Of a stretch of DNA of 64,000 nt, positions 1-64,000 are shown one piece after another. Position 1 is the first letter of the stretch. Every line of letters begins with the position of its first letter. Below the pieces are notes generated by a model that ran no database searches, had not been told where the DNA came from, and was given only the letters and a program-made list of their open reading frames with translations. The DNA comes from the human T2T-CHM13v2.0 reference genome, Homo sapiens: assembly GCA_009914755.4 (NCBI GenBank), contig CP086569.2, positions 60,672,001 through 60,736,000 of the forward strand. Reading direction: 5' to 3'. The translations under genes were made by a program, and so were the position numbers.

Positions 1-16
1 TTGATATCATATATAA

Positions 17-309
17 TTTTTTTTTTAGACAGAGTCTTGTCCGGTTGCACAGAGTGGAGTACAATGGGGCCATCTTTGCTCACTGCAACATCTGCCTCAC
101 GGGTCCAAGCGATTCTCCTCCCTCAGCTTCCCAGGTAGCTGGGACTACACCACACTGGGACTACAGCACCTGCCACCATGCCTAGCTAATTTTTTGGAAT
201 TTTTGTAGTGACAGCGTTTCACTGTATTGGCAAGGATGGTCTTGATCTCTTCACCTTGTGATCCCCTTGCCTTGGCCTCCAAATTTGCTGGGATTACAGG
301 CCTGAGCCA
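17..309 (-). mobile_element. Alu element embedded in unit U1, antisense, ~293 bp, 5'-truncated by about 8-10 bp, with CpG decay. Amplified as part of the satellite rather than by independent insertion.
   Basis: This is the reverse complement of the Alu consensus, running from the poly-T tail (17-26) through 'agacagagtcttg...gctcactgcaac...cctcagcctcccaggtagctgggactaca...gcctagctaatttttt...tttcactgt...ggtcttgatctc...cttggcctccaaatttgctgggattacaggcctgagcca'. No unit-specific target-site duplications are visible. Confidence 0.9.
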
Positions 310-880
310 AGATCCATATTTTTTAAATGAAAAAAAATTTCATAGGTACTCTGCTTGGTACAATAATCAAATGTATAAACTGAGGAATAAAACATAACCA
401 TGAAACCTACTTATAACTGCATATGGAAAATACAGAGGATAATTTTTTAAATAACATATTTTGAAAGCCTTAACTAGTAATTTGAAGAGCTGGCATTTGA
501 AAGGCCAGTATGAATATACCTTCAAAGCAGCAACACAGGTTCCCCATGAGAAAAAGCAAACACAGGGAAAATAAAAACACAAAGGTTCAATCTCTTCTGA
601 CCTTTGAAAGACACAGCACAGACAGTGGTCCTTAGGACGAAGAGCAGGAGACCCCTAATTACGTCACCATGGCGATAGGGCATAAACATTGCTGGGTGAG
701 GGCACAATCCACATTGTGAGGTCCAACTGCTGCCAGGAAGACAGGAGTGCTTTTACATAGACCGAAAGGTCATTGAAGGCTCAGAGTTTTGTTTCAAGAA
801 CTGAATCCCAAGCCCACACGTTATTAGGCTGCGCTTCTTAAAACAAGTTATGAGATGGGAAAAAGGGCACCCACAAACAT
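310..880. other. Non-Alu, non-AT-rich core of the 2.4-kb unit, shown here for U1 and present in U1-U12, U14 and U15. Ordinary base composition, origin unknown.
   Basis: Segment 'agatccatattttttaaatg...ctgaatcccaagcccacacgttattaggctgcgcttcttaaaacaagttatgagatgggaaaaagggcacccacaaacatacg' recurs at every 2.42 kb. It holds the 61-aa and 71-aa minus-strand ORFs of the track, which are not credible genes. Confidence 0.8.
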
Positions 881-61100: not shown

Positions 61101-61637
61101 CTCCAACGGAATGGAATCGAATGGAAGGGAATCGAACGGAATGGACTCGAAGGGAAAAGACTGCAATGGAAAGGTCTCGAATGGAATGGAAATTAATGGA
61201 ATGGAATGGAATCGAATGACATGGAGTCAAAAGGAATGGAATCGAATGGCAAGAAATCGAATGTAATGGAATCGCAAGGAATTGATGTGAACGGAACGGA
61301 ATGGAATGGAATCCAAAGGAATGTAATAGAATGGAATGGAATCGAATGGAAAGGACTCGAATGGAAATCACTCGAATAGAATGCAATTTAATAAAATAGG
61401 ATCAAATGTAATGGAATGGAATGGAAAGGAATCGAAACGAAAGGAATGGAGACAGATGGAATGGAATGGAACAGAGAGCAATGGTATAGAATGGAATGGA
61501 ATCATCTGGAATGGAATTGAATGGAATGGAATAATATGAAATGGAATGGAATGGAATGGAATGCCCTTGAATTAAATGGACTGGAATGGAATGGACTCGA
61601 ACAGAGTGGAATGGAAAGTTTTGAAATAGAATGGAAT
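58139..61637 (+). repeat. DYZ1-type unit D7 (3499 bp)
   Basis: Bounded by marker spacing. Several indels in multiples of 5 bp relative to D6. Shares private variants 'ggaataaactgg' and 'aaagcaatcc' with D8. Confidence 0.9.
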
Positions 61638-64000
61638 GGACTCGTTTGGAATGGTCTAGTATGCAATGCAATAGACTGGCAGGGAATCAAAAGGAATGTA
61701 ATCGAATGGATTGGACTGGAATGCAATGGACTCGAATAGATTGGAAACGGAAAGCAAAGGAATGGAATGGAATAGTATGGAATGGAATGCAAAGGAATGG
61801 AGTGGAATAGACTAGAGTGGAATGGAATGGACTCGGAAGCAATGGACTGGAATGGAACTTTCTTGAATGGACTGGAATCAAACGGAATGGAATGCAATGC
61901 AATCAAATGGCATGGAATAAAATAGAATGAAAGAGAATCAAATGGAATTGAATCGAATGGAATCGAATGGATTGGAAAGGAATAGAATGGAATGGAATGG
62001 AATTGACTCAAATGGAATGGACTAGAATGGAATGGATTCGAATGGAAGGCAAAGGAATGGAATCTATTGGAATGGACTGTAATGGAATGGAATGGAAGGG
62101 ATTGGAATGGACTCGAATGGAATGGACTGCAGTAGAAAGGATTCGAATGGAATGAAAAAGAATTGAATGGAATAGAACAGAATGGAATCAAATCGAATGA
62201 AATGGAATGGAATAGAAAGGAATGGAATGAAATGGAATGGAAAGGATTCGAATGGAATGCAATCGAATGGAATGAAATCGAATGGAATGGAATCGAACGG
62301 AATGGAATAAAATGGAAGAAAACTGGCAAGAAATGGAATCGAAATGAATGGAGTGTTATGGAACGGACTCAAAAGGAATTGAATGTAATAGAATGGAGTG
62401 GAGTGGACTCGAATATAATGGACTAGAATGGAATGAAATCACATGGAATGGGAACGAATGGAATGGAATGGAAAGGAATGGAATCGAATGGAAACGAATC
62501 GAATGGAAGGGAATGAAATTGAATCAACAGGAATGGAAGGGAGTAGAATAGACGGTAATGGAATGGACTCGAATAGAATGGACACGAATGCTCAAATTGA
62601 ATGGACTCGAATGGAATGTCAACGAAAGGAATGTCATCGAATGGAATTGAATCGATTGGAATGAAATCACATAGAATGGAGTGGAATCAAATGGAATTGA
62701 ATCGAAAGGAAAGGAAGCGAATGGACTGAAATGAAATGGAATGGAATTGAATGGAAATTAATGCAATGGAATAGAATGGAACGAAATTTCACGGAATGGA
62801 ATCAAACTGAATGGAATCAAATCAATGGAATATAATCAAATGGAATGGAAAGGAATTGAATGGAGTAGATTGGATTGGATGGGATTGGAATGAAATGTAC
62901 TGGAAAGGACTCGAATTTCATGAAACGGAATGGAATGAATTGGAACGGAATGGACTCGAATGGAATGGAATGTCATGGAATGGCATCAAATGGAATGGAA
63001 TCGAATGCGATGGAATGCTATGGAATGGAATGGAATGCATTGGAATGGAATGTCCTCTAATGGAATGTATTCGAGTGGAATGGAATCGAATATAATGGAG
63101 TCTAATGAAATGGAATTGAAAGGAATGGGACCGAATACAATGGAATAAACTGGAATGTAATGTAATGAACTCGAATGTAATTGACTGGAATGGAATGTAC
63201 ATGAATGGAATGTAATCGAATGGAAAGCAATCCAATGGAATAGAATCTAATGCAATAAAATCGACTCAAATAGAGTAGAATGTAATGGAATGGAGTGCAG
63301 TGCAATGGAATGGAATGGAATGCAATGGAATGGAATGGAATGGAATGGAATGGGATGGAATGGTATGGAATGGATAGTAATGGACTGGAGTGAAATGGAC
63401 TGGAAAAGAATGGACTCAAATTGAAAGGGCTCGAAAGGAATGGAGTCAAATGGAATGGTCTGGAATGGAATGAACACGAATGTAATGCAATCCAATAGAA
63501 TGGAATCGAATGGCATGGAATATAAAGAAATGGAATCGAAGAGAATGGAAACAAATGGAATGGAATTGAATGGAATGGAATTGAATGGAATGGGAACGAA
63601 TGGAGTGAAATTGTATGCAGTAGAAGAGAATAGAATGGAATGCAAGCGAAAGGAAAGGAATGGATTGGAATGGAATGGAATTCATTGGAATGGAAGGGAA
63701 TGTAGTGTAATGGACAGGCCTGGAATAAAGTGGAATGCTACGGTCTCGAATGGAATAAAAATGTATGGAATGGAATGCAATGAAACGGAATCGAATGTCA
63801 TAGAATGTAATGGAATGCAAAAAAATGGACTCCAAAATCATTGACTGGAAAGGCTGGGTGTCGAAAGGAATTGACTCCAATGGAATGGAATCGAATGGAA
63901 TGGAAGTGAATAGAATCGAACTAAATCGAATGGAATGGAATTGATAGGAACGGAATGGCAAGGAATGCAATGATTTGGCATGGAATGGAATCGAAAGGCA
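61638..64000 (+). repeat. DYZ1-type unit D8, partial, running off the window end
   Basis: Collinear with D7 and carries the same private variants. Confidence 0.9.

What the first reader, a model, noticed from the sequence alone, without database searches (positions are those of the whole stretch)
1..64000. Window is human Yq12-type heterochromatin: a DYZ2 (2.4-kb Alu-containing AT-rich satellite) array abutting a DYZ1 (3.5-kb GGAAT HSat3) array. It is not a gene-bearing or prokaryotic locus.
The sequence shows a ~293-bp antisense Alu once per 2.42-kb unit, which places it in primates. The 2.42-kb Alu + core + AT-rich unit and the 3.54-kb pentamer-based unit match the two classic male-specific HaeIII satellite families: the 2.47-kb 'satellite I' unit with one Alu per repeat, and the 3564-bp DYZ1 unit. 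Unit D3 here is exactly 3564 bp. No part of the 64 kb behaves like coding sequence. Any 'novel system' interpretation built on the ORF track would be an artefact.
Basis: partly seen in the sequence, partly recalled or inferred. Interest (0 to 1): 0.6.

Follow-up and report, generated by a model that had tools for sequence, protein, structure and literature searches.

The report
Human Y-chromosome satellite DNA junction
This 64-kb window is ordinary, well-described human Y-chromosome long-arm heterochromatin: a block of the 2.4-kb DYZ2 repeat joined directly to a block of the 3.5-kb DYZ1 repeat, with no genes and nothing prokaryotic in it.

Summary
Positions 1-34663 are a tandem array with a 2418-2422 bp unit. 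Each unit has a 291-bp antisense, 5'-truncated AluY-like element, a ~575-bp core and a part that is 86% AT. GC is 24.0%. This matches published DYZ2/HSat1B point for point. Positions 34664-64000 are a diverged GGAAT array with a ~3.5-kb higher-order unit and GC 38.5%. It has one HaeIII, StuI and EcoRI site per unit. It carries exact matches to published DYZ1 primers and to the published HSat3A6 (Y) 24-mer. The marker words of the other 13 HSat2/3 subfamilies do not match. HSat3A6 is reported on Y and 7. HSat1B is reported on Y, the acrocentrics and chr10. Only Y has both, so Yq12 is the best assignment. It could not be confirmed by alignment because no human reference is available here. The junction lies at 34662-34664, and repeat units become more diverged towards it on both sides, as published for Yq12 arrays. 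All 23 ORFs of 150 aa or more lie in the pentamer array and are frame artefacts. Corrections: "SAR-like" is the wrong label, DYZ2 is not strictly male-specific, one unit lacks its Alu, and the 3564-bp unit length depends on phase. The feature is already known and of low interest.

The parts
1..34663 (-). DYZ2 / HSat1B tandem array. It holds 14 Alu-bearing units, one Alu-less partial unit, and a 19-bp tail of the preceding unit. The array runs off the left edge of the window. The strand given is that of the Alu.
   Evidence: GC is 24.0% and CpG occurs once per 136 bp. The major HaeIII fragment is 2144-2148 bp. Independent public copies are 97-99.7% identical.
4862..7281 (-). Canonical 2420-bp DYZ2 unit (U03), used as the reference unit.
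   Evidence: Its length equals the 2,420-bp consensus of Hallast et al.. It differs from U04 at 1 position in the first 870 bp.
19..309 (-). AluY-derived subunit of unit U01. The same element is found in each of the 14 units, at unit start -1 to +289.
   Evidence: It aligns to AluY consensus positions 13-288, so it is 5'-truncated. There are 53 substitutions (about 19%) and a ~15-nt internal duplication. AluY scores better than AluSx, which scores better than AluJo. A sub-threshold Rfam mir-1268 hit (an Alu-derived family) lies at 122-188 on the minus strand.
310..884 (-). HSATI 'GC-richer' core of unit U01. It ends with the ACATACG joint motif at 877-883.
   Evidence: Core GC is 39%. ACATACG is present at the joint in 11 of 14 units and in the Alu-less partial unit. 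Core 32-mers are conserved in 13 of 14 units.
885..2439 (.). AT-rich part of unit U01.
   Evidence: Mean AT is 86.2%, with a range of 85.8-87.5% over the units. T2T-Y describes this part as more than 85% AT.
15889..16058 (.). 170-bp local tandem duplication inside the AT-rich part, which makes U07 2590 bp long.
   Evidence: Block alignment against U03. TRF reports a 111-bp period with 2.5 copies at 15788-16061.
28900..30510 (-). Partial DYZ2 unit lacking the Alu and most of the core. An internal deletion of about 1.1 kb across a unit boundary accounts for the '3705-bp unit'.
   Evidence: It aligns to unit coordinates 804-2420 at 90.9% identity. The joint motif CACAAACATACG is at 28945. GC is 0.13 in 28001-30000.
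30511..34663 (-). The two border units, U13 (2389 bp) and U14 (truncated at unit coordinate ~1792). They are a diverged subtype that shares a 22-bp deletion at unit coordinates 1697-1718.
   Evidence: They show 40-56 differences per 870 bp from interior units, against 1-29 among interior units.
34662..34664 (.). DYZ2/DYZ1 junction. The sequence reads ...AAATCATA|TGGACTCC..., with about 1 bp of shared sequence.
   Evidence: Four-way alignment of the junction with an intact DYZ2 unit and two DYZ1 units. The 150-bp tile spanning it is the only tile with no other copy in the window. The 40-mer across it is absent from metagenome contigs and genome contigs.
34664..64000 (+). DYZ1 / HSat3A6 array. 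GGAAT-type pentamers are on the + strand, arranged in a ~3.5-kb higher-order unit. There are 8 units and a 2363-bp partial unit. The array runs off the right edge of the window.
   Evidence: GC is 38.5% and CpG occurs once per 35 bp. StuI/HaeIII sites are at 39526, 43074, 46628, 50162, 53150, 56688, 60202 and 63716, each with an EcoRI site 38 bp upstream. The HSat3A6 24-mer matches exactly 9 times and the other 13 subfamily 24-mers give 0 matches.
34664..37442 (+). First DYZ1 unit, a short variant of 2779 bp. It lacks about 680 bp, including the HaeIII/EcoRI/primer region.
   Evidence: Offsets of 2779-2869 bp change to 3544 bp at about 36270. The segment maps to reference-unit coordinates 1462-3155 at 90.4% identity with indels counted, then jumps to coordinate 3836 of the two-copy reference, i.e. 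288 of the next copy. Substitution divergence is 2.2-3.2%, against 1-2.5% among the other units.
44535..48098 (+). The DYZ1 unit that measures exactly 3564 bp when units are phased from the junction.
50162..53149 (+). 2988-bp DYZ1 variant unit (StuI phase) with a ~555-bp internal deletion at about 50711-50722.
   Evidence: Block alignment shows reference-unit coordinates 567-1121 missing. It differs from the next unit by only 9 substitutions outside the gap.
56553..56706 (+). Example of the in-silico 154-bp DYZ1 amplicon, using the classic Y1/Y2-type sexing primers recalled from memory.
   Evidence: There are exact matches to the forward primer at 5 sites and to the reverse primer at 6 sites, in convergent orientation.
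39691..39790 (+). Example of the in-silico 100-bp amplicon of the published DYZ1F/DYZ1R qPCR primers.
   Evidence: The primers come from PMC2644265. The forward primer matches exactly at 7 sites and the reverse primer at 4 sites.

Best explanation
The window is a stretch of human Y-chromosome long-arm heterochromatin (Yq12 type). It spans the boundary between one DYZ2 (HSat1B) array and one DYZ1 (HSat3A6) array.

It encodes no protein and no known structured RNA. It is satellite DNA that persists and changes by unequal sister-chromatid exchange, gene conversion within an array, and slippage.

These processes homogenise units in the interior of an array. They leave older, more diverged and partly deleted units stranded at the array edges, which is what is seen on both sides of the junction.

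**Shown here:** the identity of the two repeat families, the anatomy of the units, variants and junction, and the absence of coding signal.

**Inferred:** the chromosomal location, from marker words, primers and the published distribution of the two families, and the turnover mechanism, from the pattern of variation together with published work on Yq12.
For: **DYZ2 side**
- The unit is 2418-2422 bp. The published consensus is 2,420 bp.
- The unit has three parts: a 5'-truncated AluY-like element with about 19% substitutions, a core of 39% GC, and an 86% AT part. T2T-Y reports 20% Alu divergence and more than 85% AT.
- The ACATACG joint motif is present.
- GC is 24.0% with 1 CpG per 136 bp. Published values are 24% and 1 per 150 bp.
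- HaeIII fragments are 2.146 kb.
- Copies in 40 public contigs are 97-99.7% identical. These include 17 'bacterial' assemblies from unrelated taxa, the contamination pattern reported for HSat1B by the T2T-Y paper.
- All window Alus belong to the majority type seen among those copies.

**DYZ1 side**
- The higher-order period is 3.5 kb, with indels in 5-bp steps.
- GC is 38.5% with 1 CpG per 35 bp, equal to the published values.
- Each unit has single HaeIII, StuI and EcoRI sites.
- The published DYZ1 qPCR primers match exactly and give a 100-bp product.
- The classic 154-bp sexing primers also match exactly.
- Of the 14 subfamily-specific 24-mers in Altemose 2014 Table 1, only HSat3A6 (Y, 7) matches, 9 times exactly. 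The other 13 give no match at up to 1 mismatch. These include A5 (chr15) and A4 (acrocentrics).

**Chromosome assignment**
- HSat1B is reported on Y, the acrocentric short arms and chr10. HSat3A6 is reported on Y and 7. Y is the only chromosome with both.
- Yq12 is described as alternating DYZ1 and DYZ2 arrays.

**Turnover signatures**
- Some neighbouring units are nearly identical. U03 and U04 differ at 1 of 870 positions, and U08-U10 differ at 4-7.
- Border units are 5-7% diverged. The first DYZ1 unit is deleted and more diverged. Hallast et al. report divergent units at array peripheries.
Against: - No alignment to a human Y assembly was possible, so the location is inferred rather than observed.
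- Only one marker 24-mer per HSat subfamily was available, not the full published sets.
Literature searches for the primer strings found nothing in the held library.
- HSat1B lies next to HSat3 on chr15p too, so an HSat1B/HSat3 junction alone is not unique to Y.
- Interior DYZ2 units here differ by up to about 3% in the Alu and core part. That is more than the 'over 98% identical to consensus' reported for most T2T-Y units, although small or peripheral arrays are reported to be more diverged.
Confidence: 0.93

Rival explanations
1. The window comes from an acrocentric short arm, for example chr15p, where an HSat1B array also lies next to HSat3. It would then not be from the Y.
For: HSat1B is present on chromosomes 13, 14, 15, 21 and 22. 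On chr15p a diverged HSat3 block lies between the HSat3 and HSat1B arrays. Interior DYZ2 units in the window are somewhat more diverged (up to about 3%) than typical Yq12 units.
Against: The marker 24-mers for HSat3A5 (chr15) and HSat3A4 (acrocentrics) give no match at up to 1 mismatch, while HSat3A6 (Y) matches exactly 9 times. Primers designed as DYZ1-specific match exactly. The 3.5-kb period with one HaeIII and one EcoRI site per unit is the DYZ1 organisation. From my own knowledge, the chr15 array D15Z1 has a 1.8-kb KpnI unit, and no such period is seen. The window's Alu type is the majority type among public copies, and most HSat1B in the genome is on the Y.
Confidence: 0.03
2. The junction is an assembly artefact: a chimeric join of reads from a DYZ2 array and a DYZ1 array that are not adjacent in the genome.
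For: Satellite arrays are hard to assemble. The junction 40-mer was not found in either public contig collection.
Against: Divergence rises towards the junction on both sides. U13 and U14 share a private 22-bp deletion and are 5-7% diverged. The first DYZ1 unit is a deleted, more diverged variant. This gradient is what is published for real array edges. A random chimera of interior reads would not show it. Direct DYZ1/DYZ2 adjacency is the normal Yq12 architecture.
Confidence: 0.02
3. The sequence is from a non-human ape Y chromosome or autosome that carries related satellites.
For: (AATGG)n is male-biased or Y-linked in several great apes. Gorilla Yq is also heterochromatic.
Against: The window units are 99-99.7% identical to copies that contaminate bacterial assemblies from unrelated laboratories, for which human DNA is the obvious source. 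Markers and primers derived from human sequence match exactly. The ape sex-chromosome comparison reports HSat1A/SAR and StSat expansions on non-human African ape Y chromosomes. It does not report a DYZ1/DYZ2-type block.
Confidence: 0.01
4. The window is a prokaryotic, phage or plasmid locus, and the ORFs in 37-64 kb encode a repeat-protein system.
For: There are 23 ORFs of 150-275 aa. Pfam gives weak hits to Pentapeptide_4 and Extensin_1.
Against: All Pfam hits are below the curated cut-offs, for example 24.8 against 38 bits and 40.5 against 105 bits. The ORFs recur with the satellite period and translate to (IPFHS)n-like strings, which is (ATTCC)n read in frame. Most start with TTG. The left 34.6 kb has no stop-free stretch longer than 95 codons. 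No match was found in plasmids or phages, and the HSat3A6 marker word was absent from viral contigs. Alu elements are specific to primates (established knowledge).
Confidence: 0.005

Closest known systems
DYZ2 / HSat1B (formerly 'HSATI'), the 2.4-kb composite satellite of Yq12
   Same: The unit length matches the 2,420-bp consensus. The three-part structure matches: a 5'-truncated AluY about 20% diverged, the HSATI core, and a part that is more than 85% AT. The ACATACG joint, GC of 24%, the CpG density and the 2.1-kb HaeIII fragment also match. Independent copies are 97-99.7% identical.
   Different: Nothing essential differs. Local variants: one unit with a 170-bp duplication, one partial unit without the Alu and core, and two border units that are 5-7% diverged and share a 22-bp deletion.
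DYZ1 / HSat3A6, the ~3.5-kb pentamer-based higher-order repeat of Yq12
   Same: The array consists of diverged GGAAT pentamers with a 3.5-kb period. GC is 38% and CpG occurs once per 35 bp. Each unit has one HaeIII, StuI and EcoRI site. The DYZ1 primers and the HSat3A6 marker 24-mer match exactly.
   Different: Unit lengths range from 3499 to 3579 bp in 5-bp steps rather than a fixed 3564 bp. One unit carries a ~555-bp deletion (2988 bp). The unit next to the junction lacks about 680 bp, including the restriction-site region.
Acrocentric short-arm HSat1B next to HSat3 (for example chr15p; subfamilies HSat3A5 and A4)
   Same: The same two satellite superfamilies lie next to each other. The HSat1B copies there are thought to derive from the Y-linked copies.
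   Different: The HSat3 subfamily is different. The A5 and A4 marker words are absent from the window and the A6 word is present. The window also shows the 3.5-kb DYZ1 organisation.
HSat1A ('SAR'), the 42-bp AT-rich satellite
   Same: It is AT-rich and was isolated in the same classical satellite I fraction.
   Different: It is an unrelated family with a 42-bp unit and no Alu or HSATI core.

Membership tests
DYZ2 / HSat1B | Tandem unit of about 2.4 kb (2,420-bp consensus, Hallast et al.) | tested here: met
   Eleven of the 13 complete unit intervals are 2418-2422 bp. The 20-mer distance peaks are at 2418 and 2420 bp.
DYZ2 / HSat1B | Composite unit: a 5'-truncated ancient AluY (~20% diverged), an HSATI GC-richer region, and a region of more than 85% AT | tested here: met
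Core GC is 39% and the AT-rich part is 86.2% AT.
DYZ2 / HSat1B | 'ACATACG' at the HSATI/AT-rich joint (Hallast et al., Methods) | tested here: met
   The motif is present at the joint in 11 of 14 units and in the Alu-less partial unit.
DYZ2 / HSat1B | GC of about 24% and about 1 CpG per 150 bp | tested here: met
   GC is 24.0% and CpG occurs once per 136 bp.
DYZ2 / HSat1B | Male-enriched HaeIII fragment of about 2.1 kb (classical definition, from my own knowledge) | tested here: met
   The in-silico HaeIII fragments are 2144-2148 bp in canonical units.
DYZ2 / HSat1B | High identity to a reference DYZ2 consensus or Dfam HSATI model | not testable with these tools
   No reference consensus or RepeatMasker is available. 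As a surrogate, public contaminant copies are 97-99.7% identical.
DYZ1 / HSat3A6 | Higher-order unit of about 3.5-3.6 kb built from diverged CATTC/GGAAT pentamers | tested here: met
   Copy-to-copy offsets are 3499-3579 bp. TRF finds a pentamer-multiple array over 34673-63995. GGAAT rotations are the top 5-mers.
DYZ1 / HSat3A6 | Carries the HSat3A6-specific 24-mer and not those of other HSat2/3 subfamilies (Altemose 2014, Table 1) | tested here: met
   TCGTTTCGATTCCTTTCCATTCCA matches exactly 9 times. The other 13 marker words give 0 matches at up to 1 mismatch. Only one word per subfamily was available.
DYZ1 / HSat3A6 | Amplifiable with DYZ1-specific primers | tested here: met
   DYZ1F and DYZ1R of PMC2644265 match exactly and give a 100-bp product. 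The classic primer pair matches exactly and gives a 154-bp product (primers from memory).
DYZ1 / HSat3A6 | GC of about 38% and about 1 CpG per 35 bp | tested here: met
   GC is 38.5% and CpG occurs once per 35 bp.
DYZ1 / HSat3A6 | One HaeIII site (and one EcoRI site) per unit, giving the classical 3.4-3.56 kb band (from my own knowledge) | tested here: met
   HaeIII fragments are 3548, 3554, 3534, 2988, 3538 and 3514 bp, with EcoRI sites in the same register. The unit next to the junction lacks the site.
Yq12 heterochromatin block | DYZ1 and DYZ2 arrays directly adjacent and alternating | tested here: met
   The arrays join directly at 34662-34664 with no intervening sequence. Only one boundary is visible in 64 kb.
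Yq12 heterochromatin block | Units at array peripheries are more diverged than interior units (Hallast et al.) | tested here: met
   U13 and U14 show 40-56 differences per 870 bp, against 1-29 among interior units. The first DYZ1 unit is deleted and more diverged.
Yq12 heterochromatin block | Physical location on distal Yq of a human male | not testable with these tools
   No human assembly or read set is available. The location is inferred from the overlap of the published distributions: HSat3A6 on Y and 7, HSat1B on Y, the acrocentrics and chr10.
Acrocentric HSat1B-HSat3 region (chr15p type) | The HSat3 belongs to subfamily A5 or A4 | tested here: not met
   The A5 and A4 marker 24-mers give 0 matches at up to 1 mismatch.
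Prokaryotic or phage gene locus | Dense non-periodic ORFs with family-level protein matches, or similarity to annotated plasmids or phages | tested here: not met
   ORFs occur only in the pentamer array, recur with the satellite period and are low-complexity. Pfam hits are all below cut-off. No plasmid or phage match was found.

The most novel reading that the evidence does not exclude
The particular boundary captured here may be a boundary variant not yet catalogued, specific to a lineage or an individual. Its features are DYZ2 cut at unit coordinate ~1792 and joined to DYZ1, two border units sharing a private 22-bp deletion, an Alu-less unit two to three units in, and a 680-bp-deleted first DYZ1 unit. 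If so, it could serve as a unique anchor or marker inside the otherwise unmappable Yq12. The family identity would remain completely conventional.
Probability: 0.25. Interest if true: 0.12.

Novelty: already known. Interest (0 to 1): 0.07.

Why it matters
For biology it matters little. DYZ1 and DYZ2 have been known since the 1970s and 1980s, and Yq12 is now fully assembled in many men.

For a genome scan it matters in practice. This window should be removed from any search for new genes or prokaryotic systems. The long periodic ORFs in the pentamer array, and their weak 'pentapeptide repeat' and 'extensin' hits, are predictable artefacts.

The same satellite is a real contaminant of public microbial assemblies. 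The DYZ2 core word occurred in 17 species-representative 'bacterial' genomes, once inside a 5-Mb scaffold. A simple marker-word screen would flag such cases early. Suitable words are the DYZ2 core 41-mer and the HSat3A6 24-mer.

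Tried and rejected
- **Rfam at gathering thresholds:** no hit. At a relaxed threshold there was only a sub-threshold hit to mir-1268, an Alu-derived family. This fits an Alu but is not independent proof.
- **Primer strings in the literature:** full-text searches for the classic 154-bp DYZ1 primer sequences found nothing in the held library. Those primers therefore stay 'from memory'. A published primer pair was found instead.
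- **Nakahori 1986 (PMC311781):** the paper is not held. The 3564-bp clone and its restriction map could not be checked against the source.
- **Junction 40-mer:** absent from metagenome contigs and genome contigs. No independent copy of this boundary was obtained.
- **DYZ1 in the fetched loci:** a BLAST of a DYZ1 unit against the 40 loci gave no alignment of 300 bp or more, so none of them spans a DYZ2/DYZ1 boundary.
- **HSat3A6 24-mer in viral contigs:** no hit.
- **The 3705-bp DYZ2 interval:** I considered an AT-rich expansion and rejected it. It is a deletion of about 1.1 kb spanning a unit boundary.
- **Low-GC 2-kb bins at 8-12 kb and 18-22 kb:** I considered Alu-less units and rejected that. 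The bins are phase aliasing of a 2-kb window against a 2.42-kb unit, and Alus are present at 9702, 12121, 19550 and 21968.
- **Embedded foreign elements:** a search for insertions or unique segments found none. Only the junction tile lacks a second copy.

Full report

Yes. Base composition changes sharply near 34.6 kb. On the left GC is about 0.24 and strand skew is near zero. On the right GC is about 0.385, with strong G-over-C and A-over-T skew.

Distances between shared 20-mers peak at 2418/2420 bp and multiples in 1-34663. In 34664-64000 they peak at 3514-3548 bp and multiples. Tandem Repeats Finder reports one continuous pentamer-multiple array over 34673-63995. No chance model produces this.

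**2. Left array (1-34663)**

*Units.* Anchors in the Alu and in the core each occur 14 times in the same register. Unit starts are 20, 2440, 4862, 7282, 9702, 12121, 14542, 17132, 19550, 21968, 24386, 26806, 30511 and 32900. Eleven intervals are 2418-2422 bp.

*Parts of a unit:*
- A 291-bp element on the minus strand. It aligns to AluY consensus positions 13-288, so it is 5'-truncated. It has 53 substitutions (about 19%) and a ~15-nt internal duplication. AluY scores above AluSx and AluJo.
- A core of about 575 bp with 39% GC.
- A part of about 1.55 kb that is 86% AT.

*Comparison with published DYZ2/HSat1B:*

| Feature | Published | Window |
|---|---|---|
| Unit | ~2.4 kb, 2,420-bp consensus (Hallast et al.) | 2418-2422 bp |
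| Structure | AT-rich repeat fused to a 5'-truncated Alu, followed by HSATI | same three parts |
| Joint motif | 'ACATACG' | at the joint of 11 of 14 units |
| GC | 24% | 24.0% |
| CpG | 1 per 150 bp | 1 per 136 bp |
| Alu divergence | 20% from AluY (Rhie et al.) | about 19% |
| AT-rich region | more than 85% AT | 86.2% AT |

In-silico HaeIII digestion gives 2144-2148 bp fragments. From my own knowledge, this is the classical '2.1-kb' male band.

*Variants:*
- U07 has a 170-bp local duplication at 15889-16058.
- The 3705-bp interval is one unit followed by a partial unit, 28900-30510. The partial unit starts at unit coordinate 804, so a deletion of about 1.1 kb removed one Alu and most of its core.
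- U13 and U14 share a 22-bp deletion, and U14 is cut at unit coordinate ~1792 by the junction.

**3. Right array (34664-64000)**

GGAAT rotations dominate the 5-mer spectrum on the plus strand.

StuI/HaeIII sites occur once per unit at 39526, 43074, 46628, 50162, 53150, 56688, 60202 and 63716. An EcoRI site lies 38 bp upstream of each. The resulting fragments are 3548, 3554, 3534, 2988, 3538, 3514 and 3514 bp.

Copy-to-next-copy offsets change along the array in 5-bp steps between 3499 and 3579 bp, so unit length depends on phase. Phased from the junction the units are 2779, 3544, 3548, 3564, 2963, 3538, 3539 and 3499 bp, followed by a 2363-bp partial unit. It is one value in a distribution and not a signature.

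GC of 38.5% and 1 CpG per 35 bp equal the values published for DYZ1.

*Sequence-level tests:*
- The primers DYZ1F and DYZ1R, printed in PMC2644265, match exactly at 7 and 4 sites. They are convergent and define a 100-bp amplicon.
- The classic sexing primer pair, which I recalled from memory, matches exactly at 6 and 5 sites and gives the expected 154-bp product.
- Altemose et al. 2014 print one subfamily-specific 24-mer for each of the 14 HSat2/3 subfamilies. Only the HSat3A6 word matches, 9 times exactly and about once per unit. None of the other 13 matches even with one mismatch. These include A5 (chr15) and A4 (acrocentrics).

**4. Junction**

A four-way alignment places the switch at 34662-34664 (...AAATCATA|TGGACTCC...), with about 1 bp shared between the two parents. 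It is the only 150-bp tile in the window with no other copy.

Divergence rises towards it on both sides:
- U13 and U14 differ from interior units at 40-56 of 870 positions, against 1-29 among interior units.
- The first DYZ1 unit lacks about 680 bp, including the restriction-site region.
- That unit is 90.4% identical to the reference unit with indels counted. Its substitution divergence is 2.2-3.2%, against 1-2.5% among the other units.

Hallast et al. describe exactly this pattern: homogenised interiors and divergent peripheries. It also argues against a chimeric assembly join.

**5. Which chromosome and which species?**

No human assembly is available here, so location is inferred.
[quoted passage not shown] Smaller amounts occur on the acrocentric short arms and chr10.
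- HSat3A6 is assigned to Y, with a minor signal on 7. Only Y carries both.
- Yq12 is described as alternating DYZ1 and DYZ2 arrays.

The serious rival is chr15p, where HSat1B adjoins HSat3. The A5 and A4 marker words are absent from the window, and the 3.5-kb DYZ1 organisation is present.

Human origin is supported by copies of the DYZ2 core in public data.
- They were found in 23 metagenome contigs and in 17 'bacterial' genome records from unrelated taxa.
- They are 97-99.7% identical to the window's units.
- Rhie et al. report this contamination pattern for HSat1B and HSat3.
- The window's Alu type is the majority type among those copies.
- The ape sex-chromosome comparison reports other satellites (HSat1A/SAR, StSat) expanded on non-human African ape Y chromosomes.

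**6. Coding potential**

The left array has no stop-free stretch longer than 95 codons.

The right array has 23 ORFs of 150-275 aa. Nearly all are on the minus strand and start with TTG, and they recur with the satellite period. They translate to (IPFHS)n-like strings, which is (ATTCC)n read in frame.

Pfam gives only sub-threshold hits to repeat families. Pentapeptide_4 scores 24.8 bits against a cut-off of 38, and Extensin_1 scores 40.5 against 105. Megablast against plasmids and phages found nothing, and the HSat3A6 marker word was absent from viral contigs.

**7. How it works**

This is non-coding satellite heterochromatin. The variation seen in the window fits the published model of turnover by unequal exchange and gene conversion within arrays.
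- Some neighbouring units are nearly identical. U03 and U04 differ at 1 position. U08-U10 differ at 4-7 positions.
- The 2988-bp DYZ1 unit differs from its neighbour by 9 substitutions outside the gap.
- Indels in DYZ1 come in multiples of 5 bp.
- There are unit-scale deletions of about 555 bp, 680 bp and 1.1 kb.
- The edges of both arrays are diverged.

A possible cellular role is published for HSat3 in general. Its GGAATG core is a TEAD binding motif. The right array has 1311 such motifs, or 44.7 per kb, all on one strand. Whether the Y array acts in this way was not tested here.

**8. Verdict**

- 'SAR-like' is the wrong label.
- DYZ2 is not strictly male-specific.
- One unit lacks its Alu.
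- The 3564-bp unit length depends on phase.

The feature is already known and interest is low.

Noticed in passing
L029 5897-6921 (NZ_HF570958.1, Nostocoides japonicum T1-X7, 5.16-Mb scaffold): A DYZ2 fragment of about 1 kb (Alu, core and the start of the AT-rich part) sits between two runs of N inside a RefSeq bacterial scaffold. It looks like a human contaminant contig that was placed by scaffolding.
   Followed up: partly
L024-L040 (genome contigs) and L001-L023 (metagenome contigs): The 41-bp DYZ2 core word occurs in 17 species-representative 'bacterial' genomes from unrelated taxa, including Mycobacterium, Bifidobacterium, Streptomyces and Alcanivorax, and in 23 metagenome loci. Several contigs are about 2.4-2.5 kb, which is one collapsed repeat unit. 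They are 97-99.7% identical to window unit U03.
   Followed up: partly
L029 6466-6790 and L026 271-595: Two public HSat1B copies carry an Alu whose left arm is 93-95% identical to the AluY consensus. In all 14 window units and in the majority of public copies the figure is 80-83%. This is a minority subtype. It may be an acrocentric type or a conversion by a younger Alu, and this is unresolved.
   Followed up: partly
L012 1409-6438 (OGJJ01000944.1) and L013 1-3665 (ERZ772991 NODE-7245): In two metagenome contigs the DYZ2 sequence is joined to 3.6-5 kb of non-satellite DNA with 33-37% GC. L012 has no ORF of 100 aa or more. This is either a chimeric assembly or some other genomic context.
   Followed up: no
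window 122-188 (-): A sub-threshold Rfam match to the mir-1268 precursor family (43.9 bits against a gathering score of 83) lies inside the Alu subunit. It reflects the Alu origin of that miRNA family and is not a miRNA gene.
   Followed up: yes
window 37307-63970, minus-strand ORFs: ORFs from the pentamer satellite give sub-threshold Pfam hits to Pentapeptide_4 and Extensin_1. A 5-nt DNA period read in three frames gives a 5-residue protein period. This is a systematic source of false 'repeat protein' calls.
   Followed up: yes
window 34664-64000 (+): The array holds 1311 GGAATG (TEAD core) motifs, 44.7 per kb, all on the plus strand and none on the minus strand. The left array has 14 on both strands combined. 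This is relevant to the published idea that HSat3 acts as a transcription-factor binding platform.
   Followed up: no
window 13741: There is a single EcoRI site in the whole DYZ2 array. It is a private substitution in one AT-rich region, whereas DYZ1 has one site per unit and extra sites in units from 53861 onward.
   Followed up: no
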